A stretch of DNA of 63,244 nt, the filler included. It is 14 parts of 14 records of this genome, joined end to end, with 100 filler letters (N's around TTAATTAATTAA, not from the genome) between each part and the next. Parts side by side here need not be neighbours in the genome. Positions count along the whole stretch, not along the records: positions 1 to 4,881 come from SRR15195285_875; 13 more parts are not named here. One strand, 5' to 3'. The translations under genes and the position numbers were made by a program. A model generated the notes under the pieces. It made no database searches. It had not been told where the DNA came from and worked only from the letters and a program-made list of their open reading frames with translations. This document shows positions 1 through 59,842 of the stretch, one piece after another. Each line of letters starts with the position of its first letter. Positions within the stretch are counted from its first letter, which is position 1.

Positions 1-425
1 AACCGCAGTGCCAGGGGCACTGCTGATTCCTGCATGATTTCTGTTGGAAAACCGAAGTCGTTCCTGCATCGTGCATCTGCACGCATGCGAAGGCACCCGG
101 CCGGCCGCTCGACGGTGGATCGCCGCAGGCGCGCCAGTGGATCGGAGTGCCTCCCACGCACGCAACGCAGGCCGCCGCGGGGCTGCGTGCGAGCTGCTGT
201 TCCGGTAAATAGCTGGCCAGCAGGAAGCTCCCGCGCGGCCTGGACGCCCCTGGTCTGGTGGTCTGGGCGTGTTGCCTGGTTGGAATCCGCAGCGCGGCCG
301 GGTGCTGGTGCGGCCGGGAGCTGTGCAGTCTGCTGGGTCTGGACGGCTGTGGCGCATGTGCGGGTCGCAGGGCTCGAAGGGTTAGCGACGCGGGGCTGGG
401 CATAGCGCTTGTGCGGACCAGCGGG

Positions 426-1670
426 ATGAGCTCGCGCAGCAAGGGCAAGGGTAAAGGTGCGACGCCGCGGGGCGAGCTGCAGTTCGACGCCAACTTTGAG
501 TCTGGCAATCTGGGAGAGGTCACGAGGCTGAACGACGCAGAGTTTGATATCAGTATCCGGCCGGATACAAACAACCCGAAGTACCGGCTTTGGTTCTATT
601 TTCGGATTCGCAACGCAAAGGCAGGCCAGCGTGTGCTGTTTAACGTCGTCAACCTCTGCAAGACCCGCAGTCTGTACCGCGAGGGCATGGCTCCCTGCGT
701 TCGCACCACAGCGCAGCCCAAGTGGGAGCGAATGCCCAGCAAGAGCGTTTTCTATTACCGCTCGCCGGCACACGGCCAAAGCTACATCATGTCGTTCGTG
801 TACGTGTTCGAGCAGGCGGCAACAGAGCACTTCTTTGCCTACTGCTTTCCGTACACTTACACCGATCTGCAACGGTATCTCTACCGGCTGGAGCGGCGTG
901 CGCTGCCGTTCGTGCAGCGCGATGAGATCGCGCGAACATTGCAGCACCGAAGGCTTGACCTGCTGACGATCACCGCGCCGGATGAGGAGTCCAGCGGGCC
1001 GAAGCTTGCCACCGTGTTCGTCACTGCGCGAGTGCATCCTGGGGAGACCCCGGCGTCCTTCGCATGTCAGGGTCTCATCGATTGGCTGACTAGTGACGAC
1101 CCCGGTGCGGTGAAGCTCCGTGATAGAACGGTCTTCAAAATTGTGCCGATGCTCAATCCAGACGGAGTATTCCTCGGCAACTATCGTTGCTCGTTCGTGG
1201 GTGTGGATTTGAATCGGCAGTGGCAGGCTCCTGGGCCGCTCGCACCGGAGCTTGTGGCAGTCAAAGCCTTGTTGCAGCAGGCAGCGCAAACTCAACCCCA
1301 ATTGGCAGTGTTTATCGACATACACTCCCACTCTGCGAATTTAAACAGCTTCATGTACTGCAACTCTCACGACGACACAGACAGACTGGAGGCCGAGACA
1401 GTACTACCAGGCTTGATGGATGCGCGATCACCTTACTTCTCGTTCGCGTCGTCGAAATTCTGTCGCGATCCGAATAAGGCGGGGTCTGGAAGACGTGCTC
1501 TGTCATCCACCGAGGCGCACTGTTATACCTATGAAATTTCCAACTACGCAGCGCTGAATGCAGGAACCGGAACGGTCGTGCCTTTCGATATCGATAGCTA
1601 CACTGAGCTCGGTCGCAGTATGGGCCTAGCCTTCGCCGATTATTATACACCAAGTGAAAGACACAAGTGA
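426..1670 (+). CDS. AGBL4: Cytosolic carboxypeptidase 6-like (M14D tubulin deglutamylase)
   Basis: FDANFESGNL and RLWFYF N-domain motifs, Zn ligands in ARVHPGE and DIHSH, PMLNPDGV.LGNYR..GVDLNRQW, CYTYE. First ATG at 426 (MSSRSKG). No introns. Confidence 0.88.
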   Translation: MSSRSKGKGKGATPRGELQFDANFESGNLGEVTRLNDAEFDISIRPDTNNPKYRLWFYFRIRNAKAGQRVLFNVVNLCKTRSLYREGMAPCVRTTAQPKWERMPSKSVFYYRSPAHGQSYIMSFVYVFEQAATEHFFAYCFPYTYTDLQRYLYRLERRALPFVQRDEIARTLQHRRLDLLTITAPDEESSGPKLATVFVTARVHPGETPASFACQGLIDWLTSDDPGAVKLRDRTVFKIVPMLNPDGVFLGNYRCSFVGVDLNRQWQAPGPLAPELVAVKALLQQAAQTQPQLAVFIDIHSHSANLNSFMYCNSHDDTDRLEAETVLPGLMDARSPYFSFASSKFCRDPNKAGSGRRALSSTEAHCYTYEISNYAALNAGTGTVVPFDIDSYTELGRSMGLAFADYYTPSERHK

Positions 1671-1875
1671 GAACATGCGGCAGCTATTGCTGTGCTACAG
1701 CACACGACTCATGCTTGGTGGCTGTACTCAGCACACACTTGTGTTGCCTGGTGTGTTGCCTGGTGTCTAACAACACGTGTCGGCACTTGTACTGGTATAC
1801 ATAAAAAGAATCATGACCTTAAAATTTGAAACAAAGTCCCGTGGGATCTACAAGAAAATGTGGTCGAGCCAACAA

Positions 1876-4773
1876 TCAATGCCCTCCTCCGCCAGCGCTG
1901 GACGCTCGTCCCTTGGGGACAGCCATGTCCGCTGTGAAGATGAGACCCGCCGCCTCCCAGTCGTCCCCGCCGTGACCGTCATACCCAGCCCGCTTGCCGC
2001 GCGCGTTGATCGTCGCCCTCCATGGCATCGTCGAGTCGCCCGGGATGCTGACTTGGGCGACCAGAGTAGGGTCCTGCGTGGAGCCCACACTAGGGTCCAT
2101 CCAGAACACAGCACCGTTCGGGACAACAAGATCCTGGGTCGCGGACCAGCTATCAAAATCGATGCCAATGGTGGATAGATGGTTGCTCGTCTCGCCTTCA
2201 TCCCACAACACCTCACCAATAGTCAGCCAAGAATCGTGCGCTGCATCGTCAGATGTAAGCGACCACAGTGACGGGTTCGTTCCGCCGATGCTCACGCCAA
2301 ATGGCGCAGCCACTTGAAAAGCGGCCGGGATGACCATCTGTTCAGCTGCTCTGCCAGCGTCCTCGCCTTTCACGACCGCTGGGCTCCCGAAGATGGCATA
2401 CACATTCTTGACATCTGACGACATGAACGACAACCCAAGCTGATACGTGACATACTGGTTGGTGGCGTCACTAGCCACCTGCCAAACGATTGGGTGGACA
2501 AACTCTACGTCTGACACGTTGCCTTTGAATGCACCATTGCGCTGGCAGGTGTGCGGAAATTCGCAGTTGTCGCGACCGGTAGCAGTGCAAGTGGTCCCAT
2601 CCGGGCAATCACCCTTGCGAGCGATTGTTGGGTAGTGAGAAGGTCCAGCAGGTGCGCACACCCGGTCGCATATGTCACCAACACGCAGCGAATCATGACC
2701 GCTTATGCCTGGAGCAACGTGGGCTCCCTGCTCCGGGTTTTGCAAAATGCAGGACCCACCGCGGAACCCATGCACAACGGCGCCCTTTGCGCCTGTCCAC
2801 TCATCGCATGTCCTGTTGCCGAACGGCGTGTAGCCGGCTCGGCAAAAGAACTGGCAGATGTATCCAGGTGGCCCCGTGCAGTTTGGGACCATCTGGTCTG
2901 GAATATATTGTGGACACGACCGCCCATCCAATCGAGAGCACTCCGCCCATGTCGGCAGGAAACTGTCGTCGCAACCGTCAGCGCTTCGTGCCATGCTGCC
3001 AGGGCGGAAGCGTCCCGGGGAAGGTGGCGCAGGTGCTTGTTGTCCCATTTCGGGTACAGGTAGTGCATCTGCACCGTCCGGGAAATTGCCACGTGTACCC
3101 GACCTTGTAGACGGTGTTTCGCCCGTGGATTCCGGATAGTAGTCATCCCCACCGGGAAGTGAGAACGTTGATATTCCAGGGTCACCATTCGCATCCAAGG
3201 GCGCCATGCTACCGGGATCGCTGGCGGACATTGGAGCCGCTGCTGGTGCGGTCTCCGCCTCCGGCGCAGTCGTCCCGGGGCCCGCAGCAAGCATCATCAC
3301 TCCGACTATGCCAAGCGTGAAGCCGGCTGCTACCGGCATCGCTCGGGAGGCGATCGGGCTCTCCGCCCTCCGCCTCTTGAACTGCCGAATGACCCGTGCC
3401 CCTGGGGCCGTATCATCTGTTGGAAGTTCCATTGAAAACTGTTGCATCTCTTGTGGCGTGGTGCAGCCGTCGCCACTGGCGCCAGATGCTTCTGACATCA
3501 AGCCGACGCCAGCTGGCGCTGCGCCTACGGAAATACCGGTCTGACCTGCGTCGAAGTTCTGGAGTGGAGCGGCTACCATCGTCGGCGGGGGCTGCGGCTC
3601 CGGCGGTGGAGGTGTGCGCTGTTTAGACTTGGTCGAGCCCGCGTCCATCTGCTCGTAAATTGCAGCACGCTCGCCCGTGAAGTGGCTTAGCACACGCTCA
3701 CAGTCCAAACACGGAACGTCGCGCGAGCACGCCGTTCGCGTCCCGCGCCGACGGATGATATGGTTGCGAAAGCTGGCAGAGCATGACGTGCAGTACGGTG
3801 GCCCATCATAGCCGAACTTTCGCCAAAAGATGCCAAGCCCTCCGTGGTCAGTTCTGCTGCACAGTGGACAGGCAACTTCAGGTCCGCCGTCGGAGCTTGC
3901 GCCAGGACGGGAGTACGTGCCACGAGACATTGGCTGAGCTTCGTCCATTGCCGCAAATATTTCCGCGTGGGGCTTGGTGAAGTGCACTAGGACCTTATTG
4001 CAGCGGTCGCACGGCACCTCCCGTGTGCACTTATCCGATGCCACCGTGCAAGTTAACATGTGCGACCGGAACACGCACGAGCACCGCGAGCAGTAGGCCG
4101 GCCCTTCGTAGCCAAATTTCTGCCAGAAGTGTCCAAGGCGATGGTGGTGTTCTCCGCACAGAGGACAGAGCCCTGCGTTCGTGCTAGACTTGCCTTTCGT
4201 GGCAGCTGGCCGCCGGTCGGGCGCAGCGACGAGCATCGGTACAACTGTCTCCAAAGGCTCCAGCTTGCCGACTGCCGGCACTCCCACGACGTCTTGCTTC
4301 ACACCGGGGCGAGGGTCGACCCAGGTGGTCGTCCTGGTCGTGTGGTCGATGAAGAAGGGGCGGCCGTTGGCCGCAGTGCGCATCTCCCAGTTCGGCGGCA
4401 GGCCGAGAAGGTCGGGGGGCGCGGAGGCCCGGGCCTCGAGCGGGGGCGTGACGCTGTCGCTGCCCGGCGAGCACGGGAAGGGATTGCCCAGGTCCTGTCG
4501 CAGGGCGCTCGGCGGCGTGTCGCCGAAGTCCGACGAGGAACCCCCGCTGTCGGAAAACTCGTCGGTCAGGGCGTCGAACGCGTCCCCATCCATGGACGGG
4601 TCGCTGTCCCACGACCGTGGAAGCTCCACCAGCCCGACGCCGCTCACGGGCTGCGCCCCTAAAATCGTGAACGGGTCCGCCCACGCTTCGATCGGCACGG
4701 TCATGTCGGCCGAACCATCCCCCAGCGCGTAGGGGTTCTCGTAGCCCTCGTCCTTGATCGCCGGCGCCTCCAT
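1876..4773 (-). CDS. Type II membrane protein: acidic N-terminus, WW domain, two Cys6 repeats, NLS, TM helix, lumenal sushi-like and C-terminal beta-rich domain
   Basis: About 965 aa from ATG 4773. WW motif [32 protein letters not shown] (~4306-4401). Repeats at ~3979-4167 and ~3679-3870. KRRR followed by hydrophobic [20 protein letters not shown] (~3280-3339). Sushi-like [28 protein letters not shown]. Confidence 0.85.
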
Positions 4774-4881
4774 GCCCTCCCCGACCGAACCCACAGCGCA
4801 CAGCCGCACGCACCGACCGCTCCCGAGCGCGCCGCTCACATACACCGCCCCAGCGCCGAACGACAGCGTCCGTACGCCGCT

Positions 4882-4981
4882 NNNNNNNNNNNNNNNNNNN
4901 NNNNNNNNNNNNNNNNNNNNNNNNNTTAATTAATTAANNNNNNNNNNNNNNNNNNNNNNNNNNNNNNNNNNNNNNNNNNNN
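4882..4981. other. Artificial contig-joining spacer (first of 13)
   Basis: N44-TTAATTAATTAA-N44 (stops in all six frames). It recurs at 8458, 12043, 15465, 21572, 25823, 29913, 34230, 37655, 43335, 48958, 52941 and 59544, each 100 nt long. Confidence 0.99.
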
Positions 4982-5105: not shown

Positions 5106-7547
5106 ATGAGCGGCGAACTTCCGGGCCTGATCGATACCCAGAGCGCCGTGGAATCGTCGGCGGTGCGTGGCCATCTGGTCAGGGACCGACATGTTGCGGT
5201 GTACAGACCATCTTCTGCTGAGGTGACACCTGAGGAGGAAATCGAGATTGTTCGCCTTGTCCCTTCGGAGGTTGGCCCGCGGCGGGTCTGGCCCGAAGGC
5301 GGGGAGACGACCGCAACTGCAGACCGCGGCGTGGTGCCGTCGCTCGAGCACATCGAGGAGCGCGGGGTTTCTGCGGCCTTCCTGCAGCACCTCGTCGACA
5401 CCCGTCTTGGCGATAAGCGCTTGGCAAAGGATGCGAGCATAGCGGCGGCAGGGCATCTGCAAGAGCGCATCGAGCGCGTGAAGGGGGAAATTGCGCGGGT
5501 GCAGACGCGGGCGAGCGAGGAGCGGCGTGGGGCTAAGGCAGCCCAAGGCAGCGACGCGAGGCAGCGTCGCGTGGTCGCTGGCCAGGCGGAGCGAGAGCTG
5601 TTGGTGCTGGAGCGCGGTTTGCGCCAACACGAGAAGGACCTCGCTTGGCGAGAGACCAAGCCGTACTTGACCGCGCGGGATGTACACAAGCTACTAGTCG
5701 TGAAAGAGACAGAGGAGCGAATGGTCCGCTACGTCGAGCTGCCAGGCGTGTGCGACGGTTTCGATTCGGAGACGGGCAAGTGTTTCGTTGGGCAGGCGCA
5801 GTACTTTTTCAGCTACAGCTGGGACTCGCCGTGGGAGGATGTGGTCGGCGCGCTGGTGGCGCACAGCGCACGGATCGTTGAGGCAGGGCGGCCGCCGCCG
5901 TATTACTGGATTGACATCTTCGCGGTGAACCAGCACACGCGGGACGCCGCGGTCAACGGCCATGCTGTGTGCGGAGCGTGTGAGGAGTGCCGCAAGAACT
6001 CGTTGTGCCCACCATGTCCGGCATGTGCCGCAAGTTACTGCAATGGTTGCCCTGGCTGCGCGGCAGTCTGGAAAGACATGCATGACTGGAGTCGACCTGT
6101 CGGCCACCCAGCTAAAGGATTCGAGCGGGTGATCAAGCATGTCAAACACACGCTGGTGCTAAACGAGCCATTGGATAACCCGAGGCCCCCTACACGTGTA
6201 TGGTGCCTGTTTGAAGGCTACACCACTCTAGCCTGCCACGGTAAGCTAGAAGTGGTGCTTGCTCCACGGCATCATGACGATCTTCAGCTGAGCTTAGAAA
6301 AACAGTTCGCCTACCTGCAGGCATACGTCAGTGGCATCGACAGCCGGCTGGCAGAGGCCACGGTGGAGCAGGATCGAACAAACATCTTCGCTTCGATCGA
6401 GAGGCTGGAGGGTGGGTTCGAGAGGCTGAACGATAAGATGCAGAAGGCGCACTGGCGCTGGCTTGCGGAGACCGCGGATGGAATGCTGAGCCGCACTGAG
6501 CCCAGCAAATTACGGGAGCGTTGCAGCCGCTGGTGTGCTCTTTGTCAAGCTGCAAATGCTGCCGCGACGCACGCCGAGCTCGCAACGAAGGTCGGATGGC
6601 TCTGGCTCAGACTGGGCGAGGCAAAGGCGGCCGAAAAGATCTTTCGTGCTGCGCATGAAAAAGTGCAGCGCATGGTTGGTACTGACGACTCAGAGCACAG
6701 TTACATCGTCGCGCCTGGATTGACGCGAAGCCTGTGCGAGCTCGACAGGCCGAAGGCTGAGGCGCTGCTGGCTGAAGTTAAAGCGGCGACAGAACGGAGC
6801 GCGCGGAATGGCTGCACGCGGCAACGCAATTTGAATTTTGGCAGCGAATGCCTTGGCTTTGTCAGAGCCTCGGGGTGGAAGCGCCGTGGCCCTATGTTGC
6901 GCGCTCGCATGGCGGCGGCGGCACGATTGCCGGACGCCGAAGTACTGGCACTACTGACTGAGGCGGGGAAGACCAAGTTTGGCGAGAAGTACTGCCTCAG
7001 CGACAACGAGCCGGAGTGGGCTGAGCTCCGAGCTCGGATGGCTCCGGATGGCGAGGGCACTGCAGAGGACCGCGCTGTGTGGCAGGCTCTGCCACAGCTG
7101 ATGCGCTCGGCGGGAGACAACGCTCTCTCGCCGTGGGTCAAGTACACACACAACGGTCGGAGCTACTACAAGCACGACAACCGAAAGTATGCCACGTTGA
7201 GAAAACCATCGGTTTTGGAAGGTGTGCGCCAGGAAGCTGAGGTTGATATGCCAGGACTCGCACTCACAGCAGATCAGTGGGAGAGTAACTACTTTAGGCT
7301 GGGTGGCCCGGACAGATGGACGCTACAGCAGTACGAAACATATCTATATCGCCAGCGGATTTTGAGGTGCAAGTGTACCGGTGCATCTGAGCTTGTGCCT
7401 CCTGTGCCTCCAGATTGGTTTCTCTGGTGTCTCCAATGTGTGGTTTCTCCAATGTGTTTTTGTATCCTCATCATCCTCATCATCATCTGTTGTATCATCA
7501 TCATTGCAATTTGGGCAGAATGGGTACTGGCCAACGTACCCAACTAA
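5106..7547 (+). CDS. Uncharacterised 813-aa protein with HET-like domain, TPR-like helices and C-terminal TM anchor
   Basis: YFFSYSW..YYWIDIFAVNQH..TRVWCLFE motif set, typical of HET-like/kinesin-light-chain-associated protist proteins. TPR-like GWLWLRLGEAKAAEKIFRAA. Ile-rich TM at the C-terminus. Confidence 0.8.
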   Translation: MSGELPGLIDTQSAVESSAVRGHLVRDRHVAVYRPSSAEVTPEEEIEIVRLVPSEVGPRRVWPEGGETTATADRGVVPSLEHIEERGVSAAFLQHLVDTRLGDKRLAKDASIAAAGHLQERIERVKGEIARVQTRASEERRGAKAAQGSDARQRRVVAGQAERELLVLERGLRQHEKDLAWRETKPYLTARDVHKLLVVKETEERMVRYVELPGVCDGFDSETGKCFVGQAQYFFSYSWDSPWEDVVGALVAHSARIVEAGRPPPYYWIDIFAVNQHTRDAAVNGHAVCGACEECRKNSLCPPCPACAASYCNGCPGCAAVWKDMHDWSRPVGHPAKGFERVIKHVKHTLVLNEPLDNPRPPTRVWCLFEGYTTLACHGKLEVVLAPRHHDDLQLSLEKQFAYLQAYVSGIDSRLAEATVEQDRTNIFASIERLEGGFERLNDKMQKAHWRWLAETADGMLSRTEPSKLRERCSRWCALCQAANAAATHAELATKVGWLWLRLGEAKAAEKIFRAAHEKVQRMVGTDDSEHSYIVAPGLTRSLCELDRPKAEALLAEVKAATERSARNGCTRQRNLNFGSECLGFVRASGWKRRGPMLRARMAAAARLPDAEVLALLTEAGKTKFGEKYCLSDNEPEWAELRARMAPDGEGTAEDRAVWQALPQLMRSAGDNALSPWVKYTHNGRSYYKHDNRKYATLRKPSVLEGVRQEAEVDMPGLALTADQWESNYFRLGGPDRWTLQQYETYLYRQRILRCKCTGASELVPPVPPDWFLWCLQCVVSPMCFCILIILIIICCIIIIAIWAEWVLANVPN

Positions 7548-8457: not shown

Positions 8458-8984
8458 NNNNNNNNNNNNNNNNNNNNNNNNNNNNNNNNNNNNNNNNNNN
8501 NTTAATTAATTAANNNNNNNNNNNNNNNNNNNNNNNNNNNNNNNNNNNNNNNNNNNNGCTTCTGGGTGTAGCCTGCAGTTTCCGCAATTGGTCGACGGGT
8601 CGCGCGGAGCTGATGCTACAAAGCGAAACCAGTCAGAATCCCAGTACTACTGATTCTGCGATACAGACTTGTGATACTAGTATGGAGCGTTACCTGGGTT
8701 TAGGTAGGTACTAGTAGTATGTGGTACAGCCGTTAATGCATGCGGCGCCGCGGTGACGTGTCAGCAATAATTTTGAATCACGACGAACACAACGCTGCCT
8801 CCTGGCGCAGTGGTGCGCACATGTGACGTGGTCCCTGGCGAGGGACGTGCGACCAGCGCCACGTGGCATCGGACGGCATCGAAGAAACTGAAGAGCGCGG
8901 GCGGAGGCTTGGATGATCAAGAGGGACACAGTCTGATTAACTAGGTGTCACCGCACAACATACTTCAAGACGCTACGCCACCGC

Positions 8985-11888: not shown

Positions 11889-12631
11889 CGATCGCGCACC
11901 CAACCAGCGCAGGGTGGATGGCCCGCAAATGCCGATGATACGATATACAGTACTAGTATATATGCACTCCTGACACCTTTGCATGTGATTAGGAATATGT
12001 GCGCCTAAATGCAGGAATTCTGCATTCAGCTCATGCATAAATNNNNNNNNNNNNNNNNNNNNNNNNNNNNNNNNNNNNNNNNNNNNTTAATTAATTAANN
12101 NNNNNNNNNNNNNNNNNNNNNNNNNNNNNNNNNNNNNNNNNNCAACCTGGGTACTGCGGCTTAGGCGGGACGACACATCGGGACCTGATGAGTGGCACAG
12201 CACGTGCGCGTGCGCATGCGTGGCCCGCGCGCGCGGTGGTCTATCTGTGCGCCGCGCGTGACAGCGCGAGACAGGAGAGAGATAGAGAGAGACAACGAAA
12301 GTGAGCTGAACAGTGGCAATTTGCGGGTCGGCGAGTGGCTCTCTCTGCTATCCGCGTATGCGTATGCTGGCGAGAGCACTCTACCGGCGGGGTCACACGT
12401 CATCTGACGCACGACGACCTCGCTCCAGCAAGATGATTCTCTCTACATGCAGCGCCACCACCACCGCTGCTGCTGCGTATGCCGCATCTAACACCACCAC
12501 CACCACTGGAGCCTGCAGTACCCACTCTGTTCAATGCTTTCTCTCAATCCTGGCAGTCATTTTGCCAGCGTAGTCGTGCACGGCGCTCGTCTGAGTGTGA
12601 TGGTGACTCGGCCGTGCTTTGGTCGGAGCAG

Positions 12632-15351: not shown

Positions 15352-15966
15352 CTACGTATTTTGTGAGGTTGCTGTCCACACAGTCGCCGCAAATGGCACA
15401 TAGGTATATAAACAGTCTGCCACATCTCAGCCAGTCTGTTGCGGCATGGTAGCTGCTCGCACGCNNNNNNNNNNNNNNNNNNNNNNNNNNNNNNNNNNNN
15501 NNNNNNNNTTAATTAATTAANNNNNNNNNNNNNNNNNNNNNNNNNNNNNNNNNNNNNNNNNNNNTTCCCTGATCTATTTTCCCTGATCTATTTTGCCATC
15601 CATCCGGATCCGTGACCATTTTGTGTTCCGAACCGGTTGGTTCTCCTCAGAGGTGAAATTTCTGACAGGCTACCCGACATGTACACGTTGAATATTGCAT
15701 TATTAATACAGGACACCGTGCTAGCGACAGAATTGGAGAAATAGGACGGCCAGAGTCGTCTGACTGACTCGGTCCCAAATTCAACAAAACTCATGCTAAT
15801 TCGAGCAATCCAGACAGCAATCACTATTAGTATTCCCTGAATTTCATGGATTAGGATTCGTCGTGAACTACGAGTTTATACGCGTGCTCCAGAATCGGTT
15901 CTGGCTCGCTGTTGGCGGCCTGGCCGTGGGCGGGCACCGTGGGCTGAGAGCGGCTGCTCGGTCGTG

Positions 15967-16468: not shown

Positions 16469-18016
16469 GGACTGGGGAAGGATGCCAAGCGCTAGACTGT
16501 TGCAGCAGCCCATGTATATTAATTGACTAACGTAAACAAACGCTCTGCGCAGCGCTTCGTCTCCGCTGAGCCAACGGTCGCTTGGGCCGTGATCGATCCT
16601 TGCGTGTGGGCGTGCGGTGCACAGCCGTCGCTGCGTTGCTGCCAGTAGCAGGGCTGGCGCAAGGACTGTGCAGTGCTGCCAAGGCCGTGGTTCCGGAAGC
16701 GCCTGTTCCACGCTGCCCAGCGCAACGTGGCACCGCTCTTACGCGGCACGTGCATGCGAATTCGCTTGTTGGGTCGGTGGTGCAACGATAGCGCCCTGAG
16801 AACGGAGAATCAGCTGCCCGCCACCGCTTCGCGATGGCTCGTCTTCTTGAGGCCTCTGGCGTGGCAGTACTATCTTTGATATCTCCGCCGCCTAGGTGTG
16901 CATCAGTTCCTCATGATGGCTCTGCTCTTCTGATTGCACGGATGGCCAGGCGCAGAATCCCGCCCAACACTGCGTGTAGCCGCCCCTGATCACACTTGGT
17001 GTGATACTACTGTGCGCATGACACATGGGACCTGTACCGTCGGCTCTTTGCCCCCACGGGCGACGGGCCACGCTCCGTCGCTCCCACCGCTCACGCCTCA
17101 CCCTCCTGGGGGTCACCGGCACGCGGCAGGCGAAGTTCTTTGCTGCGTCCGTCGGTCACGTCGCGCTGCCGGTCAGGAGCGCCTCCAGGAGCGCCTCCAG
17201 GAGCTACCAGCGCTGTCCCCTGTCGTCAGCAGTGCCACTGGCAGTCCTCCAACCGAAGTCGTGCAGCTCCAGAGCTGCCCTTCCATACCGCAGGCGCGAG
17301 CGATACGCGCCACGAGGGCACTCAGCGCAACAGCCAGTGAGGGAGCCCGAGCTCAGGGTCGAGTCGTCAGGTGTTCAAAAAGTCGCTCGGTCTCGAAGGG
17401 ACGCTGCGTCACTGAGCACGCATTTCTCTGTGCGACGCTGTTGGCCGCAGCTAGTTGGCCTTCTGTGGTCGCCGCTGCAGTGGATGAAGGTGGAAGTTGC
17501 TAGCAGAAGTGAAGTACTCTCCAGTCACCCGGTCGCTACTCCCGTGGCGCCGATCCGGACAGCGGAGTCCTGGCGCGTGTTGCCCTGAATGTAAACGAGC
17601 GCCGCAGTGGCAGCAGTGCTCCAGGCGGCTAGCACATACAGTACAGTGGCAGCACATCTCGAGGCTTGGGAACAGATCTGAGCAGGAAAAGGGTCTGGCC
17701 GTACTGCCGATGAGAGCAATCGCGGCCTGGGGTGCCGTGAGTACAATCGTCTTTAGCGTGCGCGCGATGGCTTCATGCCCACATGCCGCATGCACCATGC
17801 AGCGGTCGCGGGCAGTGGTCGCGGGTCGGTGAGTCGTATCGGTGCGTGAGTGACTCATTCGACTCATCGAAGAGCGACTATTCCGTATTCCCCACTGGTG
17901 GGCATCTACCTCGGCTGCTGCGGTGCCACGCTGCTGCGGCTGCGGGCGGCGGCTGCTGCGGCGGCTGCTGCGGCCGTGGCTGCGCGGTAGCCGCTGCAAG
18001 GGGTGGGGCTGCTGCG

Positions 18017-20529
18017 ATGAGCCCGTATTCGTGCGCGACGCACACGCTGGCAGTGAAGATTGTGGCTGACCGGACGCTGGAGTACACCTTCTCGCGCTAT
18101 ACGGAGTACGCCATTGCGGTGTTCGCGGGCGGGACGTATGTCACGTCAACTTGGCAGCGGTACAAGCGGTTCCACCAGCTGCACCGAGAGCTGGTGCGCA
18201 ACATGCGCGCGCAGGCAGCGCAACTCCCTTCCCTGCCGCCCAAAATTCGCGGACGTGGCGCCCACCCGCGAGTCGTCGCGGATCGGCGTGACGAGCTGTG
18301 CCAGTACATCAACGTGCTGCTCGATGCGGTGCCCGAAAGGCTCATCCCGATTATCGACCGCTTCCTAGGACTGGATCGAGCACCAGTCCCGATGCCGTCC
18401 TCAGATTCTGAGCGGAACTCGCGCCCTGGGATGATGCTGGGCTACGATCGCCGCGAAATTGAGCAGGTGCAGGAGATTGTCGGGGAGTGTGGCATGCTGG
18501 TCGACGAGCTGGCTGACGAGCTCAGCCTTGTGGGCCTGTCCACGGAAGAAGTTGCTCGAGTGAGGCGCACGGCCACTGATCTGGTCGATGCACTGCAAAC
18601 ACTTTCGTCGCAGCAGCCGATCCAGTGGCAACAGGCGCTGAAGGCCGAGCGGGAGCGCGCTGCGTATCTGGAGCGATCGGTGCGGACACTGGCGCTGCAG
18701 AACGAGCGAGTGCTTGCGGGTGCCACCCAGGGGGTGGCGTCGCCGCTGCCGCGAGAGTTGGACGAGGTTGAACAGGGCGAGGAGTCAAGTAGCGATGATG
18801 ACGACGACTTTTTCGACACACTTAGCCACCACGATGACACGTTGCATGATCTGCCAGCGGGTGACCCGGCAGGTGCTGGCTTGGATGCTACTGTTGCAGA
18901 CGCCAACTCAGCACGGCTAGCGAGGCTTGGCCGGATCGAAGGTAGTGCTGGCAGTAATCGTGGTGGAGGTGGTGCCTCGAACGTGAGCTCTGACGGGGTA
19001 GATGGCGGCCGGCGGCGCATGCGGATTGCAGCATACAAGGGATTTACAGAGGTGTCCATGTGGGGCTTCTTGAAGGAAGTCATCGGTCAGGACCTCACGA
19101 GAATTACGTTCCCGGTCGCATTTAACGAGCCGCTTTCCCTCTTGCAGCGCGCGGCAGAAGACATGGAGTACAGCTATTTGCTAGATCAGGCAGCGGCTTG
19201 CGCGGACTCAGAGCAGAAGCTGCTGTACGTGGCGGCGTTCGCCATTTCAAACTACACTGCAACCTGTCATCGGCTGGGAAAGCCGTTCAATCCCCTGCTG
19301 CATGAGACCTTCGAGTACATCAAGCCCAGCGATGCAGAGCGAAAGTGTGGCGGATTCCGTTACATCGCGGAGCAGGTCGGCCATCATCCACCTGTGTCAG
19401 CGATCCATGCAGAAGCCCTACCGGCGGCGAGTGGGCAAAGCCCAGCATGGACCTTTTGGTCAGACTGGGAACCCAAGATGTCATTATCTGGCGCGCGGTG
19501 CAACGTGGTAGCGGACGGCGTTAGCCAGTGCAGGTTTGCCGAAACGGGCGACCATTTTTCGTGGTCTAAGGTGACGACACAGGTCAACGGGATCATCGTC
19601 GGCACCATGGCAATCACGCACTTTGGGGAGATGAAGATCATCAACCACACAACAGGCGAGAGCTGTGTAGTTGAGTTTGAACAGCAGGGGTTGTGGGATT
19701 TCGGTCCCGACCAGGCTAGGCTGTCGGGCGTACTCCGCTCGCAGAGTGGGGTGGCACGGTATGCCCTGCAGGGCTCATGGGACTCAGTCGACGGTCACCT
19801 GTGCGCCGCAAAAGCTGCAGGGGAAGGGAACAAGGTAGTAATGGCGCCTGGTAAAGCTCTACGCATCCGCACTGCGTCGTTCATCTGCAACAACATTTTG
19901 TTGCTCCACCCGCCACGGGCTTGCGCTACTGTTGAGAGTACTGATACTGCCGGTGTGTGACAGATGAGGAGCCGGCGGAGTTGTTTCGCGTGGAGCCTCG
20001 CCCTAATGACTCGGCAAGGCAATATAACTTCACCCAGTTTGCTATTGGACTCAACCAGCGACCAGGTCCAGCGAAGCGTGACGGCGGCGTGATAGGGCGA
20101 CCGGCGCCGACAGACACCACGCTGCGGCCAGACGTGAGGGCCATGGAGGAGGGCAACATGACCCTGGCAGCGGATGAGAAACATAGGCTAGAGGTGAAGC
20201 AGCGTGCGGCGCGGAAGATTCGTAAGGATGCGGGCGAACACGGTGAGTACTGCGTGCCTGGCTGTTTCCCTCACAGGAGCAGGCCGTACGGCAAGACTAT
20301 TATCGGTTGTGTCTGCCCCGGTCTCAAGTTTTTCACTAACATCCATTTGTGCCTGTCTGTCGGCCGGTGGACGTCAGCAGGCGAGCCGCCGCCACGTTGG
20401 TTCCGCAAAGAGCGGGACACGACGTTGGATAGAGACGCGTGGGTGTTCCAAGGAGAATACTGGACTGCGCGCGACGCAGGGGCATTCGAGGACGGCAGCG
20501 CAGCGCATGGCTGCGATGACATCTATTGA
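18017..20529 (+). CDS. Oxysterol-binding-protein-related protein with N-terminal PX domain and FFAT motif
   Basis: PX-like YTEYAI..QRYKRFHQLHREL..LPSLPPK..RRDELCQYINVLL. Coiled coil. SSSDDDDDFFDT (FFAT-like, 18806-18820). ORD motifs GQDLTRITFPVAFNEPLSLLQR, KPFNPLLHETF, EQVGHHPP and EKHRLEVKQR. Introns 19851-19963 and 20243-20380. Confidence 0.9.
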
Positions 20530-21202: not shown

Positions 21203-21779
21203 GTTCGCGCTCTCTAGTGCACAGGAGGCTGCGAGCTGTAGGTCTGCTGCGCCGTCTGTCTGTGCGTGTGTGCGGCGTTGGCCTTGCTGGAAGCGCCGTG
21301 GCCCTGGTGACAAGCTGACCCGTGACCATATGAAACTTGGTAGAAATCGGATTGCAAATTCGTACTAATTGGATTTTACAATACTGTATTTAGATAGGGA
21401 TAAATGCGGATGTTTGCAGGGCTGGGTGAAACCATTTCGGAGCGTCGTTGCCTGCAGGCATGTGAGCCGCACGATCCTGCCCACGGCACCTGCTGCAGGA
21501 TCGAGGATCGGCAATCACGGCTCTTCATCTGAGATAGATCTACTGTGTGTTTCCCATCAGGTTCTGAGACTNNNNNNNNNNNNNNNNNNNNNNNNNNNNN
21601 NNNNNNNNNNNNNNNTTAATTAATTAANNNNNNNNNNNNNNNNNNNNNNNNNNNNNNNNNNNNNNNNNNNNTACTGATCATGCATGAATGGATAACTCCG
21701 CGCCGCTTTTCCCGCGGCTGCACCCCTTCGCGCTCTCGCACCTCGCTCAGGCTCATACGCCGTTCGCCATACGGAGGGC

Positions 21780-25822: not shown

Positions 25823-26403
25823 NNNNNNNNNNNNNNNNNNNNNNNNNNNNNNNNNNNNNNNNNNNNTTAATTAATTAANNNNNNNNNNNNNNNNNNNNNN
25901 NNNNNNNNNNNNNNNNNNNNNNACAGACAACTACTTTTTACCTTCCCTCATTATTATAGTGTCGGCCCGCTTACGGACAGCGACCAATTTCAGTAGAATT
26001 CCCGAAAACCACGAAATGATTTATGTTCCGGCGCTTGAAAATGATGTCCCGGTGAAATCTCCGCTGACGAGTCAAAATGGACTTCTTGCCCCGCATCCCG
26101 TCACCAGCCGGAGTGAGGCCTCCCGTTCTGTCAAAAACGAAAATGGACAATGATCTGAACATATTGCCTTATGCCACTTAATTATCTATAACTACTATAA
26201 TCGTACCCCGGGCGGGTACTGAACAGTACCAGTGTACACTGTGTTGTGTGTACACGCCATATGAGAAAATTGACAATCACGACTTCACGAGTCCTCGCCC
26301 CGGCTGGTGGGCCGGCGGGCGCCTCCTGAGCTGATTACGCATCATCCGCAACGCAACGCAACGCACAGCAGCTACCATTGACAGCTACCGCCCTTGCCTT
26401 ACG

Positions 26404-29510: not shown

Positions 29511-30098
29511 TATCGTCCCGACGCTTCTCTGAAGGTAGCTTTCAGCATACTCTACGAATGCTATGAATGGTGGCCAGCCAATCTATCATTCAGCGTTTCC
29601 ACGCGGCGGTGGTGGAGCATCGGAGCGACGCGCTGCACGCTCCTCCCTTCCCCAACCCTTCCGCTTGCCCCGAAGGCTTGCTGCCTGCCTCGTGCCGCGC
29701 TCCTCTCTTGGGGTACTTAGAGAGGCTGCGTGCGTGCCTCAGCCCGGCACTACAGCTGCATAACTGCGCATGTACCAGGTACGCCACGCAGCTGAGGTAC
29801 GCGTATATCCTAGATACGTACCTGCGCGGCGCGCGCGCGCGGTTGACCGCCGCCTCCGGTGGGACTTGTTCTATTGTCTATCATGATTGTTAATGAGTTG
29901 ACTGTGTTTGCANNNNNNNNNNNNNNNNNNNNNNNNNNNNNNNNNNNNNNNNNNNNTTAATTAATTAANNNNNNNNNNNNNNNNNNNNNNNNNNNNNNNN
30001 NNNNNNNNNNNNCGCATAGGATACGGAACGGTGTACTAACCATGTGCTGTGTGTTGTGTGCTGTGCCGATCGACACCATTCGCTTCGTCAACTTGCAG

Positions 30099-33323: not shown

Positions 33324-34329
33324 CGATCAAGAAACTGCCGCGACGAAATGAAAGCCGAGTGCATGTCATTCTCACCCGTACTCACTCGTACTCACTCGCA
33401 CGGTTCACCTGTTGCTGGTTCTGCAAACGATATCGTTGACTTGTTGGTATCCCACCTCGGCTCCCCTATGTTCGTGGGGCTGCAATCGCGCGTGAGTGAA
33501 CATGACACCGTCAGCAACTATACCCCCTGGGTCGTCTGCCCAGGCAACTAGCATCTTGCAGCTCGGGTAAGACGCAGAGGCTCCACGTAGTGTAGACACG
33601 GTGCTATGGTAATGCATCGATTGGTTTCATGGCGTATCTTGTTGCCCACGCGTCTTGCGTCGGTAACACAGCGAGCAACGACGCTACAGGTGCTGGGAGC
33701 GATCACAGTGCTCCTACGTGCACCAGCCTCCGCAACTAGTCTTCGCAATTCCACTACAGTCAGCACCCACGGCTGCGATTCATTCCCTGCGTACGTATAA
33801 AATATAGTACTTTAGACAGCACTCAAATTCGTGGCGCTGTCGCTTTGACTCGGACATTGTCGTTGCGCAGCTTCATGAGCTTGAGAGACTCAGATTTGAA
33901 TCGGCAAATGACGAATGTTGAAGGTGCGTCTGTGATTTGTTTCCGGTGTGTGTTGGTTCAGGGTTGCAGTCCCCGTGGTCTCTCCAACAGGCAGGCTGTG
34001 ACGCTCCCGGACTGTAACCGTCGGTGCCGCCTGCCACCACAGCAGAAGGTGGTGTCAGAACTCAGCCGTTCAGATGAAAGCACTAACATACGTCGATGCA
34101 GGTGTCATGCATACCTCCACATAGTCCTTTGCGCTGCAGAATTTTGGACAATCGGTTCACGAACGCTTGCGGCTCCCAAATCTGTGGCAGACGCGACATG
34201 CTGCGTACTCTTGAGCCTCCCTTGCGGTCNNNNNNNNNNNNNNNNNNNNNNNNNNNNNNNNNNNNNNNNNNNNTTAATTAATTAANNNNNNNNNNNNNNN
34301 NNNNNNNNNNNNNNNNNNNNNNNNNNNNN

Positions 34330-37223: not shown

Positions 37224-37754
37224 CTGTCACCACACAGCCATCAGCACATGCGATTCAGAGACAGCTTCGGTCTCGACCATGTGTGTGGTATGTACCGAAG
37301 AGTGTGCACTGTCTACCGCGTGTTTCCCTTGCAAGAGCGCCTTTGACAAGACTGGCGAAAATGATAGAGGGGTCCTTACTTCTCGCCGACCTGCATGTCC
37401 CACTGCTCGGGGGCTGCGCTCAGCCGGCGCTGGTCTCCTGGGTTGCGTGTGGTGCCCATGGGCCTCGACGCGTCCTGCACAAGCGCAACTCATGGTGAGC
37501 AACCGCCCGTCACGACAGGGACGCAGATCTACCACGCCACACTGTGGCTTGGGGGGAGCGCCTGCAAGCTTTGGGGGACTATTCGTCCTCTAGGCTGGCC
37601 TGCCCTCACTCGGTTCCCTCCACACACCCTCCCCCCCCCCCCCCCCCCCCCCCCNNNNNNNNNNNNNNNNNNNNNNNNNNNNNNNNNNNNNNNNNNNNTT
37701 AATTAATTAANNNNNNNNNNNNNNNNNNNNNNNNNNNNNNNNNNNNNNNNNNNN

Positions 37755-43272: not shown

Positions 43273-43435
43273 TAACTGACGCAGACGCAGACGACACTGA
43301 ATACTGAAAGACGACACTGAATACTGGCATGGGCNNNNNNNNNNNNNNNNNNNNNNNNNNNNNNNNNNNNNNNNNNNNTTAATTAATTAANNNNNNNNNN
43401 NNNNNNNNNNNNNNNNNNNNNNNNNNNNNNNNNNG

Positions 43436-48957: not shown

Positions 48958-49140
48958 NNNNNNNNNNNNNNNNNNNNNNNNNNNNNNNNNNNNNNNNNNN
49001 NTTAATTAATTAANNNNNNNNNNNNNNNNNNNNNNNNNNNNNNNNNNNNNNNNNNNNCTGCGTTCTTGTACGCGCGCTCGGTAGTCGCTATATTCATCGA
49101 TGAACAGTTTTGTGTACACTACCGGTACAGTGGCGTACAA

Positions 49141-52940: not shown

Positions 52941-53070
52941 NNNNNNNNNNNNNNNNNNNNNNNNNNNNNNNNNNNNNNNNNNNNTTAATTAATTAANNNN
53001 NNNNNNNNNNNNNNNNNNNNNNNNNNNNNNNNNNNNNNNNACCGAAGCCCAACCACTACTTGGGAGGCAG

Positions 53071-59543: not shown

Positions 59544-59842
59544 NNNNNNNNNNNNNNNNNNNNNNNNNNNNNNNNNNNNNNNNNNNNTTAATTAATTAAN
59601 NNNNNNNNNNNNNNNNNNNNNNNNNNNNNNNNNNNNNNNNNNNCGCGCGCGCGCGCGGCGAGAGACATCTTGCATGCATCGCAGCGCCGCGCGGCGCGCG
59701 CTGCACGCCGGGGCGGAGATGGAGGTGCTGCTTGTGAGCGCCGAGTGTCGTAGCCTAGAAAACTGTACTCTAGACATCTAGTACATACATACTACGGCAG
59801 ATCTCTCTGCAGTGGTCGCTCGCTGTGCACACACATAATCAC

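What the first reader, a model, noticed from the sequence alone, without database searches (positions are those of the whole stretch)
1876..4773. Candidate membrane-tethered transcription factor or one-component sensor
Seen: in order, an acidic/aromatic low-complexity N-terminus ([14 protein letters not shown]), a WW domain, two Cys6 modules, a Pro-rich linker, a basic cluster [10 protein letters not shown] about 10 aa before a single Gly-rich TM helix, then Cys-rich sushi-like and beta-rich lumenal domains. There is no N-terminal signal peptide, so type II topology is likely. Known: ATF6/CREB3, MYRF and plant NTL/bZIP factors share this layout and are released by proteolysis. Inference: this may be an undescribed regulated-proteolysis signalling system that uses its own DNA-binding module.
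Basis: partly seen in the sequence, partly recalled or inferred. Interest (0 to 1): 0.85.

Follow-up and report, generated by a model that had tools for sequence, protein, structure and literature searches.

The report
Membrane-anchored protein with new zinc module
This gene from an uncultured marine protist, probably a picozoan, encodes a single-pass membrane protein whose cytosolic half carries a WW domain and two copies of an undescribed zinc-binding module, so it may carry signals from the cell surface to the nucleus, though neither cleavage nor DNA binding has been shown.

Summary
Window 1876-4773 (minus strand) is one intronless ORF of 965 aa. It has an acidic N-terminus, a WW domain (Pfam E 9e-11), two Cys/His modules, a Pro-rich linker, the basic cluster [10 protein letters not shown] ten residues before the only hydrophobic helix (478-498), a 14-Cys region and a C-terminal beta-sandwich. 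Two corrections: each module has an eight-ligand set (C4 + HC3, probably two zincs), not Cys6, and "sushi-like" has no Pfam support.

The module matches no Pfam family, PDB sequence or solved fold at significance. The best structural resemblances are weak (Z <= 3.6) and are mostly nuclear-receptor and GATA DNA-binding fingers, with RINGs at similar scores. It defines a family of 222 clusters, and the only taxon names attached to them are Picozoa. In 52 of 69 members with enough downstream sequence, a TM follows the module within 150 aa, and in 50 of those 52 the N-terminal flank is the more basic one. The ectodomains vary (Kelch, TNFR, EGF, beta-sandwich). Soluble members also exist.

Cleavage, nuclear import and DNA binding remain untested. 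I put a membrane-tethered regulator at about 0.4 and a non-cleaved receptor or scaffold at about 0.3. The window is a concatenation of 14 contigs, so gene context beyond position 4881 is meaningless.

The parts
1876..4773 (-). Whole coding sequence, 965 aa plus stop, single exon
   Evidence: ORF list and translation. Colinear with P0002 and with orthologues P0003-P0009. RNA-library contigs from 3 studies lie on it colinearly at >= 99% identity with no joints.
4414..4773 (-). Acidic, Ser-rich N-terminal region (residues 1-120), net charge -18. It holds a conserved acidic/aromatic motif (F-D-x-L-T-D-E-F) and a DSGxxS-type stretch.
   Evidence: Composition and conservation among orthologues. Its function as an activation domain or degron is inference only.
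4312..4401 (-). WW domain (residues 125-154)
   Evidence: Pfam PF00397, E 8.9e-11, 42.1 bits against a cut-off of 26.9. Best PDB matches are NEDD4-family WW domains.
3937..4167 (-). Zinc module 1 (residues 203-279). Candidate ligands are C203, C206, C228, C231, H238, C249, C255, C258 (+H264), followed by a third helix.
   Evidence: Invariant columns. AlphaFold pLDDT is about 85-96 in this block. No Pfam hit at E <= 10.
3640..3870 (-). Zinc module 2 (residues 302-378). Candidate ligands are C302, C305, C328, C331, H338, C349, C355, C358 (+H364), followed by a third helix.
   Evidence: The module HMM scores 130.5 bits here and 131.2 bits on module 1.
3583..3621 (-). Pro-rich linker (residues ~385-397)
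   Evidence: Read directly from the translation.
3370..3399 (-). Juxtamembrane basic cluster [10 protein letters not shown] (residues 459-468)
   Evidence: Translation. K466 and R467 are invariant in 9 family members. The family-wide mean is 6.1 K+R in the 25 aa before the TM, against 1.5 after it.
3280..3342 (-). Single Gly/Ala-rich transmembrane helix (residues ~478-498)
   Evidence: Kyte-Doolittle maximum 1.94 at 478-479. L487, G488, G491, M494, L495 and G498 are invariant in alignment A1.
2980..3279 (-). Pro/Ala/Thr/Ser-rich, poorly conserved stalk (residues 499-598)
   Evidence: Alignment A1 is gappy here. Composition.
2539..2979 (-). Cys-rich extracytosolic region (residues 599-745), with 14 Cys and two N-x-S/T sequons (N631, N653). 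Its second half is absent in orthologues P0007-P0009.
   Evidence: No Pfam family. AlphaFold pLDDT is mostly below 65.
1909..2538 (-). C-terminal Cys-free beta-sandwich domain (residues ~746-955). The same domain occurs, often repeated, in secreted-looking proteins.
   Evidence: Shared with P0011-P0026 and P0028. AlphaFold pLDDT about 80. Only generic cohesin/adhesin/Ig-like matches: Z <= 6.3, Foldseek E >= 2.7e-3.
4882..4981 (.). Artificial spacer (N44-TTAATTAATTAA-N44) marking the end of this gene's contig
   Evidence: There are 13 such spacers in the window.

Best explanation
SHOWN:
- The gene encodes an expressed-looking, intronless, type II (N-in, C-out) single-pass membrane protein.
- The cytosolic 477 residues hold an acidic region, a WW domain and two tandem copies of a previously undescribed module of about 80 residues. 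Each module has eight conserved Cys/His ligands (C4 + HC3) and is confidently predicted to fold as knuckle, beta-hairpin and helix (a GATA-like treble clef), followed by a second knuckle-helix and a third helix.
- The outside part is a stalk, a disulfide-rich region and a beta-sandwich that is otherwise found in secreted proteins.
- The module defines a large family whose only named members are Picozoa. Its rule is: module(s), then a basic stretch, then a small-residue-rich TM, then a variable extracellular domain. Soluble paralogues also exist.

INFERRED (most likely mechanism):
The protein is a membrane-tethered regulator. The ectodomain binds an outside ligand or surface. The cytosolic part is then released by juxtamembrane or intramembrane proteolysis; type II helices rich in Gly/Ala are the substrate class of site-2 and signal-peptide-peptidase-type proteases. 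The basic cluster serves as a nuclear import signal. The zinc modules bind DNA or chromatin, and the acidic N-terminus and the WW domain recruit partners.
For: Topology:
- There is a single hydrophobic segment and no N-terminal one.
- The 25 aa before the TM are basic and the 25 aa after are not, here and in 50 of 52 family members.
- All three N-x-S/T sequons and 14 of the 32 Cys (an even number, compatible with disulfides) lie after the TM.
- The C-terminal domain recurs in proteins with signal-peptide-like starts and with EGF, CUB, F5/8C or LRR domains.

Architecture rule:
- 52 of 69 members with at least 150 aa downstream have a TM within 150 aa of the module. Seven more have one further away, and 10 have none.
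- Kelch and TNFR hits lie C-terminal of the TM.

Module:
- AlphaFold mean pLDDT is 86.
- The best local fits are GATA fingers (Foldseek: 4hc9_A rmsd 2.3 over 38 columns, 6gat_A 2.2 over 40).
- Over the whole module the best fits are nuclear-receptor DNA-binding domains: the 12 best rows of 18, Z 2.7-3.6, 52-71 residues aligned, 16-24% identity.
- The core module is net positive in all 155 copies examined, mean +6.
- In the long-loop subfamily the loop between the first knuckle and the Trp is K/R-rich.

Other points:
- Soluble and membrane-anchored paralogues coexist. From recall, the same is true of plant NAC and bZIP factors.
- The TM helices are 42% Gly+Ala+Ser+Thr (no control set was run).
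- RNA-library contigs, including one oligo-dT library, cover the gene.
Against: - No sequence or fold match to a DNA-binding domain is significant. Pfam finds nothing at E <= 10, the profile against PDB sequences finds nothing relevant, no Foldseek match reaches E <= 1e-3, and the best VIA Z is 3.6, a level the tool itself says can reflect only a common arrangement.
- RING and RBR domains score nearly as well (Z 2.4-3.1).
- A basic juxtamembrane cluster is expected for any type II anchor, so it is not specific evidence for an NLS.
- No protease site could be recognised, and nothing here shows cleavage.
- This protein's own modules are only weakly basic once the third helix is counted (+1 and +2).
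- Co-occurring domains give almost no nuclear hint: one chromo domain among 42 long members, and one helicase-associated domain among 74 shorter ones.
- The ectodomain types (beta-sandwich, Kelch, EGF, TNFR) fit adhesion or receptor proteins that signal without being cleaved equally well.
Confidence: 0.4

Rival explanations
1. A non-cleaved type II receptor or adhesion protein. The zinc modules and the WW domain form a membrane-proximal scaffold that recruits cytosolic partners or binds acidic lipids. Signalling or anchoring happens at the membrane, and nothing goes to the nucleus.
For: - Treble-clef zinc modules are very often protein- or lipid-binding (general knowledge, recalled).
- WW domains are protein-recruitment modules.
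- The ectodomain modules are typical of adhesion and receptor proteins.
- A positively charged module close to the membrane, plus a basic juxtamembrane stretch, would suit binding to acidic phospholipids.
- No cleavage site was found.
- The small-xxx-small spacing in the TM (G484-x3-G488-x2-G491) could drive dimerisation rather than proteolysis.
Against: - Soluble paralogues consisting of a low-complexity region plus a C-terminal module are harder to explain as membrane scaffolds.
- The best structural resemblances, though weak, are mostly to DNA-binding fingers.
- There is a strongly acidic N-terminal region of the kind seen in activation domains (inference).
Confidence: 0.3
2. A membrane-anchored component of the ubiquitin system. 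The zinc modules would be RING-like E2-binding domains, or ubiquitin or substrate adaptors. The NEDD4-like WW domain would recruit PPxY proteins. The overall arrangement would be analogous to transmembrane RING ligases.
For: - RING and RBR domains appear among the weak fold matches: HOIP RING1 Z 3.1, gp78 RING Z 2.7, HHARI Z 2.5-2.7.
- The closest sequence relatives of the WW domain are in NEDD4-family ligases.
Against: - The ligand spacing does not fit the RING consensus as I recall it. There is no C/H-x2-3-C-x2-C after the second pair, and the second CxxC instead starts a 13-residue helix.
- No RING, IBR or zf-C3HC4-type Pfam hit appears at E <= 10.
- Nuclear-receptor domains outrank RINGs in both VIA lists.
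Confidence: 0.12
3. An assembly or annotation artefact: a chimeric ORF, or a fusion of two genes in a fragmentary single-cell or metagenome bin.
For: The window is a concatenation of short contigs, and the gene ends 109 nt from a contig end.
Against: - The whole ORF lies inside one contig (1-4881).
- The same full-length architecture is found in eight independent orthologous clusters at 42-100% identity.
- Contigs from 4 RNA runs of 3 studies lie on it colinearly.
Confidence: 0.02

Closest known systems
ATF6 / CREB3 (OASIS) family of type II membrane-tethered bZIP transcription factors
   Same: Layout: a cytosolic N-terminal regulatory domain, a basic stretch, a single type II TM, and a lumenal or external sensing domain. 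Soluble and tethered relatives coexist in the wider family. The ATF6/CREB3 properties are recalled from general knowledge.
   Different: No bZIP domain is present (Pfam). The putative DNA-binding part is a new zinc module. The ectodomain is built of extracellular-type modules rather than an ER-stress-sensing domain. S1P/S2P processing is unknown here.
Teneurins (type II receptors whose intracellular domain is reported to reach the nucleus)
   Same: A large type II surface protein with a basic motif next to the TM on the cytosolic side, proline-rich or WW-related interaction elements, and Cys-rich plus beta-propeller ectodomains. In the wider family here, 16 of 42 members have Kelch-type propellers. 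Teneurin properties are recalled; I saw PMC2289808 only as a search listing.
   Different: No teneurin domains were found. Teneurin intracellular domains have no zinc module.
GATA-type zinc finger and nuclear-receptor (zf-C4) DNA-binding domain
   Same: The first half of each module has a CxxC knuckle, a beta-hairpin with a conserved Trp, and a second CxxC that opens a helix bearing F-R-x-H, as in GATA fingers (motif comparison from recall). Local superposition is 2.2-2.3 A over 38-40 columns. Two successive zinc sites, each followed by a helix, and a C-x5-C start to site 2, resemble nuclear-receptor DBDs (Z 2.7-3.6).
   Different: No Pfam GATA or zf-C4 hit at E <= 10. The loop has 21 residues (36-60 in most paralogues) rather than 17-20. 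The second site is HC3/C3H rather than C4. The fold scores are below significance.
NEDD4-family WW domains (group I, PPxY-binding)
   Same: Residues 125-154 are a bona fide WW domain, closest to WW3 of NEDD4L.
   Different: There is no C2 or HECT domain, and the WW domain sits in the cytosolic part of a membrane protein. Only the closest orthologues have it: 1 of 42 long and 1 of 74 shorter family members at E <= 1e-4.
Bacterial ToxR-like membrane-bound one-component regulators
   Same: The logic of a DNA-binding N-terminus, one TM and an outside sensor in a single polypeptide (recalled).
   Different: ToxR acts while still in the membrane, in a cell without a nucleus, and uses a winged helix. 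A eukaryotic protein would have to be released or sit in the inner nuclear membrane.

Membership tests
WW domain (PF00397) | Pfam profile match above the gathering score, with two conserved Trp and a Pro | tested here: met
   42.1 bits against 26.9, E 8.9e-11, residues 125-154. PDB WW domains match at E down to 5.9e-25 for multi-WW chains.
GATA zinc finger (PF00320) | Profile match to the GATA family | tested here: not met
   No GATA hit for residues 195-380, or for either module alone, at E <= 10.
GATA zinc finger (PF00320) | C-x2-C-x17-20-C-x2-C spacing (spacing as stated in the abstract of PMC8367991, seen in the listing) | tested here: not met
   The spacing is x21 in module 1 (C206 to C228) and x22 in module 2 (C305 to C328). 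Most paralogues have the knuckle 36-60 residues upstream.
GATA zinc finger (PF00320) | Treble-clef fold superposable on solved GATA fingers | tested here: inconclusive
   Foldseek gives rmsd 2.2-2.3 A over 38-40 columns, but E 3.8-8.7 and probability <= 0.2.
Nuclear receptor DNA-binding domain (zf-C4) | Profile match, and two C4 zinc sites | tested here: not met
   No Pfam hit at E <= 10. The second site has at most three Cys plus His.
Nuclear receptor DNA-binding domain (zf-C4) | Fold similarity over the whole DBD | tested here: inconclusive
   Z 2.7-3.6, rmsd 4.0-5.4 A, 52-71 residues aligned. These are the top 12 rows and 11 of the top 17 rows, all below the level the tool calls meaningful.
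RING finger E3 ligase | Cross-brace C3HC4/C4C4 spacing and a profile match | tested here: not met
   No RING-type Pfam hit at E <= 10. The spacing read from the sequence does not fit the consensus (the consensus is recalled).
RING finger E3 ligase | RING fold | tested here: inconclusive
   Z 2.2-3.1 for several RING and RBR domains.
ATF6/CREB3-type membrane-tethered transcription factor | bZIP DNA-binding domain | tested here: not met
   Pfam finds only WW in the whole protein at E <= 1.
ATF6/CREB3-type membrane-tethered transcription factor | Type II single-pass topology with a cytosolic N-terminus | tested here: met
   Prediction only. There is a single hydrophobic segment and no signal peptide, the basic flank is on the N-terminal side, and sequons, Cys and extracellular-type domains are on the C-terminal side.
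ATF6/CREB3-type membrane-tethered transcription factor | Regulated proteolytic release and nuclear import | not testable with these tools
   This needs tagged expression and fractionation.
MYRF-type membrane-tethered factor | NDT80-type DNA-binding domain and an intramolecular chaperone auto-processing domain | tested here: not met
   Neither family appears in the Pfam scan of the whole protein.
   No Sushi hit at E <= 1 for the whole protein or E <= 10 for residues 592-758. A G-Y-x-x-x-G ... C ... W stretch at about 640-660 resembles the motif only by eye.
Cohesin-like / Ig-like beta-sandwich (C-terminal domain) | Fold similarity | tested here: inconclusive
   Best Z is 6.3 (a BBSome subunit and a cohesin, tied), with many unrelated beta-sandwiches at Z 5-6. 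Foldseek best E is 2.7e-3.

The most novel reading that the evidence does not exclude
Picozoa, an uncultured phylum of tiny marine heterotrophs, carry a lineage-specific, much-expanded family of single-polypeptide "receptor-transcription factors". In these, a variable extracellular domain is wired through one type II helix to a new two-zinc DNA-binding module, built like a GATA finger fused to a second zinc knuckle and overall resembling a nuclear-receptor DBD. Ligand-triggered proteolysis would send the cytosolic part directly to the nucleus. Soluble paralogues would be the free transcription factors of the same family.
Probability: 0.3. Interest if true: 0.85.

Novelty: new variant of a known kind. 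Interest (0 to 1): 0.62.

Why it matters
If the module binds DNA, this would be a new DNA-binding domain family and a new, expanded class of membrane-to-nucleus signalling proteins. It would sit in a phylum known only from single-cell and environmental sequence, where nothing is known about how cells sense their surroundings. It would also offer an independent evolutionary example of the ATF6/Notch/teneurin logic.

Even on the conservative reading, the work defines two domain families missing from Pfam. One is the C4-HC3 zinc module, with 222 clusters at 50% identity. The other is an extracellular beta-sandwich. It also gives a clear architectural rule that can be used to annotate hundreds of "hypothetical proteins" in marine metagenomes.

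Tried and rejected
- Pfam on the modules, the Cys-rich region and the beta domain at E <= 10 gave only sub-threshold noise, such as C1_1, Ribosomal_S27e and zf-CCCH_tandem.
- A profile of 17 module sequences against all PDB sequences gave one irrelevant hit at E 7.8.
- The ESM Atlas search gave a top score of 0.77, below the level the tool treats as a lead.
- Foldseek against PDB gave no E <= 1e-3 for either model. VIA-align gave Z <= 3.6 for the modules and <= 6.3 for the ectodomain, so there is no specific fold assignment.
- No whole genome is held for the window, so paralogues in the same genome could not be counted. A six-frame scan of the window found no second module gene and no second copy of the C-terminal domain.
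- Earlier findings of this scan returned nothing, by place or by sequence.
- Gene-neighbourhood reasoning was dropped once the N44-TTAATTAATTAA-N44 spacers showed that the ORF at 5106-7547 and everything beyond lie on other contigs.
- Literature: four full-text searches turned up no description of this module or family in the results listed. In the Picozoa single-cell genome paper PMC8599508, a term search of the main text found 0 occurrences of "zinc", "receptor" or "intron". Its supplements were not seen.
- Parts of the gene without RNA-contig cover in single runs are not interpreted.
- No complex-prediction job was run. No specific binding claim is made that such a job would decide.
Full report
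WHAT IS THERE

The finding's coordinates delimit one ORF on the minus strand, from the ATG at 4773 to the stop at 1876-1878, giving 965 aa. Orthologues from environmental assemblies begin at the same methionine. P0002, from a 3.2-kb contig, is colinear over the full length (reported as 100% identity and coverage, with a few substitutions visible), so there is no intron. Contigs from four RNA libraries of three studies, one of them oligo-dT primed, lie on the gene at >= 99% identity with no joints. This suggests expression in seawater communities, but contigs from RNA libraries cannot exclude carried-over DNA.

THE WINDOW IS A CONCATENATION

Thirteen spacers of the form N44-TTAATTAATTAA-N44 split the window into 14 pieces. 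The gene's contig is window 1-4881. Its only true neighbour is a convergent M14 cytosolic-carboxypeptidase gene at 426-1670. The ORF at 5106-7547 and everything beyond it are on other contigs, so I drew no conclusions from synteny.

CHECK OF THE OBSERVATION

Every listed element is present.
- Residues 1-120 have net charge -18 and contain the quoted acidic/aromatic motif.
- Residues 125-154 are a WW domain (Pfam E 8.9e-11, above the gathering score), closest to NEDD4-family WW domains.
- There are two Cys/His modules at 203-264 and 302-364, and a Pro-rich linker near 385-397.
- [10 protein letters not shown] lies at 459-468, ten residues before the only strongly hydrophobic stretch (about 478-498, Kyte-Doolittle 1.94). 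No hydrophobic segment occurs in the first 470 residues, so there is no signal peptide.
- After the TM come a poorly conserved Pro/Ala/Thr stalk, a 14-Cys region (601-743) and a Cys-free beta-rich domain.

Two descriptors need correcting.
- The modules are not Cys6. The conserved ligand set is CxxC, then a loop with an invariant Trp and G-Y-x-G-P-x-Y, then CxxC-x6-H-x10-C-x5-CxxC. That makes eight ligands, enough for two zinc ions. A further His five residues later is conserved in only about half of the family.
- "Sushi-like" is unsupported by Pfam, and that region is modelled with low confidence.

TOPOLOGY

The 25 residues before the TM carry 6-7 Lys/Arg and the 25 after it carry none. All three N-x-S/T sequons lie after the TM. 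The C-terminal domain recurs, often in tandem with poly-Pro linkers, in proteins that start with signal-peptide-like segments and contain EGF, CUB, F5/8C or LRR domains. It remains a prediction.

THE MODULE IS NEW AND DEFINES A LARGE FAMILY

No Pfam model matches it even at E <= 10. A profile of 17 copies finds nothing relevant among PDB sequences. The ESM Atlas gives no usable lead.

A full phmmer scan of 1.84 billion representatives with residues 195-380 found 222 clusters at E <= 1e-3, 112 at <= 1e-10 and 19 at <= 1e-30. I analysed the 150 listed hits together with the hits, 176 stored proteins in all. Of these, 156 contain the module by an HMM built from seven close homologues, 34 of them with two copies.

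The family consensus is L-G-x-W-W-x-K-x-G-Y-x-G-P-x-Y-C-Q-R-C-S-E-V-F-R-D-H-I-I-R-Q-x-x-N-S-A-x-C-S-R-x-x-P-C-x-D-C-x-K-V-L-x-H-F.

An upstream CxxC knuckle is nearly universal. Of 154 module anchors with at least 60 residues of upstream sequence, 139 have one within 60 residues. In 62 it lies within 25 residues, as here. In 71 it lies 36-60 residues upstream, across a Lys/Arg-rich loop.

The 71-column core is net positive in all 155 copies examined, with a mean of +6.

The only taxon-bearing names in 30 clusters looked up are EukProt Picozoa single-cell assemblies, including the one assigned to Picomonas judraskeda. This covers 8 of the 28 module-family clusters and 1 of the 2 beta-domain clusters. 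Two word-index searches added no named organism, only another EukProt SAG identifier. The window's organism is therefore probably a picozoan. Whether the family is restricted to that phylum is not established.

Among 155 module proteins, 69 have at least 150 residues after the last module.
- 52 have a hydrophobic 19-mer (Kyte-Doolittle >= 1.6) within 150 residues.
- 7 have one further downstream.
- 10 have none.

In the 52:
- The 25 residues before the helix average 6.1 Lys/Arg and 1.9 Asp/Glu. The 25 after it average 1.5 and 3.1.
- The N-terminal flank is the more positive in 50 of 52.
- 34 of 52 have at least 4 Lys/Arg within six residues.
- The helices are 42% Gly+Ala+Ser+Thr (no control set was run).

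The parts after the helix differ between members. Kelch-type or attractin-type propeller hits occur in 16 of 42 long members, along with TNFR, EGF and ephrin-receptor-like hits. Some individual Kelch scores are below Pfam's gathering cut-off. In every case checked these domains lie C-terminal of the helix. P0010 and P0031 share the two modules, a KKRQRR cluster and a TM with this protein but have a different ectodomain and no WW domain.

So "module, basic stretch, TM, variable ectodomain" is a real rule.

The remaining 86 proteins have fewer than 150 residues after the module. Many must be fragments, but some are complete soluble proteins. P0090 (470 aa) and P0075 (425 aa) recur at identical length on contigs of up to 12.5 kb, and P0059 is a complete 467-aa model with two modules and no TM.

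Co-occurring Pfam domains on the cytosolic side are almost absent. There was one chromo domain and one WW among 42 long members, and one helicase-associated domain and one WW among 74 shorter ones.

FOLD OF THE MODULE

With a 44-sequence alignment, AlphaFold2 models residues 195-380 at mean pLDDT 86, with the two modules joined by a disordered linker.

Each module reads as follows: a knuckle, then short beta-strands, then a 13-residue helix that starts at the second CxxC and carries the F-R-x-H motif, then a loop with one Cys, then a second helix starting at the third CxxC, and finally a third helix ending in a conserved F/Y-x-x-M-D.

Fold-search results:
- Foldseek finds no match at E <= 1e-3. 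Its weak list is dominated by GATA fingers (local fits of 2.2-2.3 A over 38-40 columns) and nuclear-receptor DNA-binding domains.
- An exhaustive VIA-align search gives a best Z of 3.6 (the DNA-binding domain in an RXR/LXR entry). Nuclear-receptor domains take 11 of the first 17 rows, with RING and RBR domains interleaved at Z 2.4-3.1.
- Re-alignment of Foldseek's list puts nuclear-receptor domains in all 12 top rows, Z 2.7-3.6, 52-71 residues aligned.

These values are below what the tool regards as more than a common arrangement.

My reading is a GATA-like treble clef followed by a second HC3 zinc knuckle, giving two sequential zinc sites each capped by a helix, an arrangement like that of nuclear-receptor DBDs. 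The resemblance is a lead towards nucleic-acid binding, not evidence of it.

ECTODOMAIN

The C-terminal roughly 200 residues model at pLDDT about 80 as a beta-sandwich. There are only generic matches: cohesins, pilins, adhesins and Ig-like domains, with Z <= 6.3 and Foldseek E >= 2.7e-3. It is a second domain family absent from Pfam. The Cys-rich region is variable, and its second half is missing in orthologues P0007-P0009.

MECHANISM

Shown: a type II membrane protein (by prediction) with a conserved cytosolic zinc module and a variable outside domain, belonging to an expanded family.

Inferred: because no enzymatic output domain exists in any member, the zinc module must be the output. The most economical model is release of the cytosolic part and action in the nucleus. 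The points in its favour are:
- the weak DNA-binding-finger resemblance;
- the uniformly positive module;
- the K/R-rich loop and juxtamembrane clusters, which look like classical import signals;
- the acidic/aromatic N-terminus;
- the coexistence of soluble paralogues;
- small-residue-rich type II helices of the kind cut by site-2 and signal-peptide-peptidase-type proteases (recalled knowledge).

I give this 0.4. The main rival is a non-cleaved receptor or scaffold in which the module binds proteins or acidic lipids (0.3). A ubiquitin-system role, suggested by the RING-like hits and the NEDD4-like WW domain, gets 0.12. An assembly artefact is essentially excluded by the orthologues. The remainder is left for unknown functions.

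COMPARISON AND NOVELTY

The layout is that of ATF6/CREB3-type tethered factors and, in the wider family with propeller ectodomains, of teneurins. Membership in any of these families fails on their defining domains (no bZIP, NDT80 or teneurin modules). Membership in the GATA, zf-C4 or RING families fails on profile and spacing tests, and the fold tests are inconclusive. The WW domain is a genuine member of its family.

I found no description of the module or the family in four full-text searches, or in the main text of the Picozoa single-cell genome paper. Its supplements were not seen.

The finding is best classed as a new variant of a known kind of system, built on a new domain.

Noticed in passing
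window 4882-4981, and 12 further sites (8458-8557, 12043-12142, 15465-15564, 21572-21671, 25823-25922, 29913-30012, 34230-34329, 37655-37754, 43335-43434, 48958-49057, 52941-53040, 59544-59643): The window is not contiguous DNA. Fourteen contigs of about 3-6 kb are joined by N44-TTAATTAATTAA-N44 spacers, which put a stop in all six frames. Any synteny or gene-density argument across these points is invalid, and ORFs that touch them are truncated.
   Followed up: yes
window 1909-2538 (-), and proteins P0011-P0026, P0028: The C-terminal beta-sandwich is a separate domain family that is not in Pfam. It occurs one to three times per protein, often between poly-Pro linkers, in secreted-looking proteins with EGF, CUB, F5/8C, LRR or Kelch domains. 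A cluster member (P0182, cluster of P0015) is from a Picozoa single-cell assembly.
   Followed up: partly
C-termini of P0001, P0003-P0006, P0017, P0018 (window 1879-1893 for P0001): Many proteins carrying the beta-sandwich domain end in Gly-Gly-(Gly/Asp)-Gly-His at the very C-terminus. This may be a processing, sorting or metal-binding tail. It is unexplained.
   Followed up: no
window ~4531-4590 (-), residues 62-81: The conserved acidic stretch contains a D-S-G-x-x-S pattern, which from recall is the form of a beta-TrCP phosphodegron, and an E-F-S-D-S stretch that loosely resembles an FFAT-like motif. Both are conserved in orthologues P0003-P0006 but could be chance in a Ser/Asp-rich region.
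   Followed up: no
window 34282-36867 (-), a different contig, truncated at the spacer: An ORF of 861 aa with F5/8 type C (E 8e-11), SRCR, and weak Dockerin_1 (E 1e-4, just under the cut-off) and EF-hand hits. A dockerin-like element is notable because the beta-sandwich domain gives weak cohesin-like matches. Possibly a eukaryotic cohesin-dockerin-like pairing, but very speculative.
   Followed up: no
window 5106-7547 (+), a different contig: An 813-aa ORF with no Pfam family, a Cys-rich CxxC cluster in the middle and an extremely hydrophobic Ile/Cys-rich C-terminal tail, so possibly tail-anchored.
   Followed up: no
window 426-1670 (+), same contig as the finding: An M14 cytosolic carboxypeptidase with its characteristic N-terminal domain, from the family of tubulin-deglutamylating enzymes (recalled), convergent with the finding's gene and 205 bp from its stop. 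There is also a PX + oxysterol-binding protein at 17783-19960 and two C2-domain proteins at 53071-58743, all on other contigs.
   Followed up: partly
P0100 (650 aa; a cluster member is from a Picozoa assembly): One family member has the module followed by about seven hydrophobic segments rather than one. This would be a polytopic variant of the architecture.
   Followed up: no
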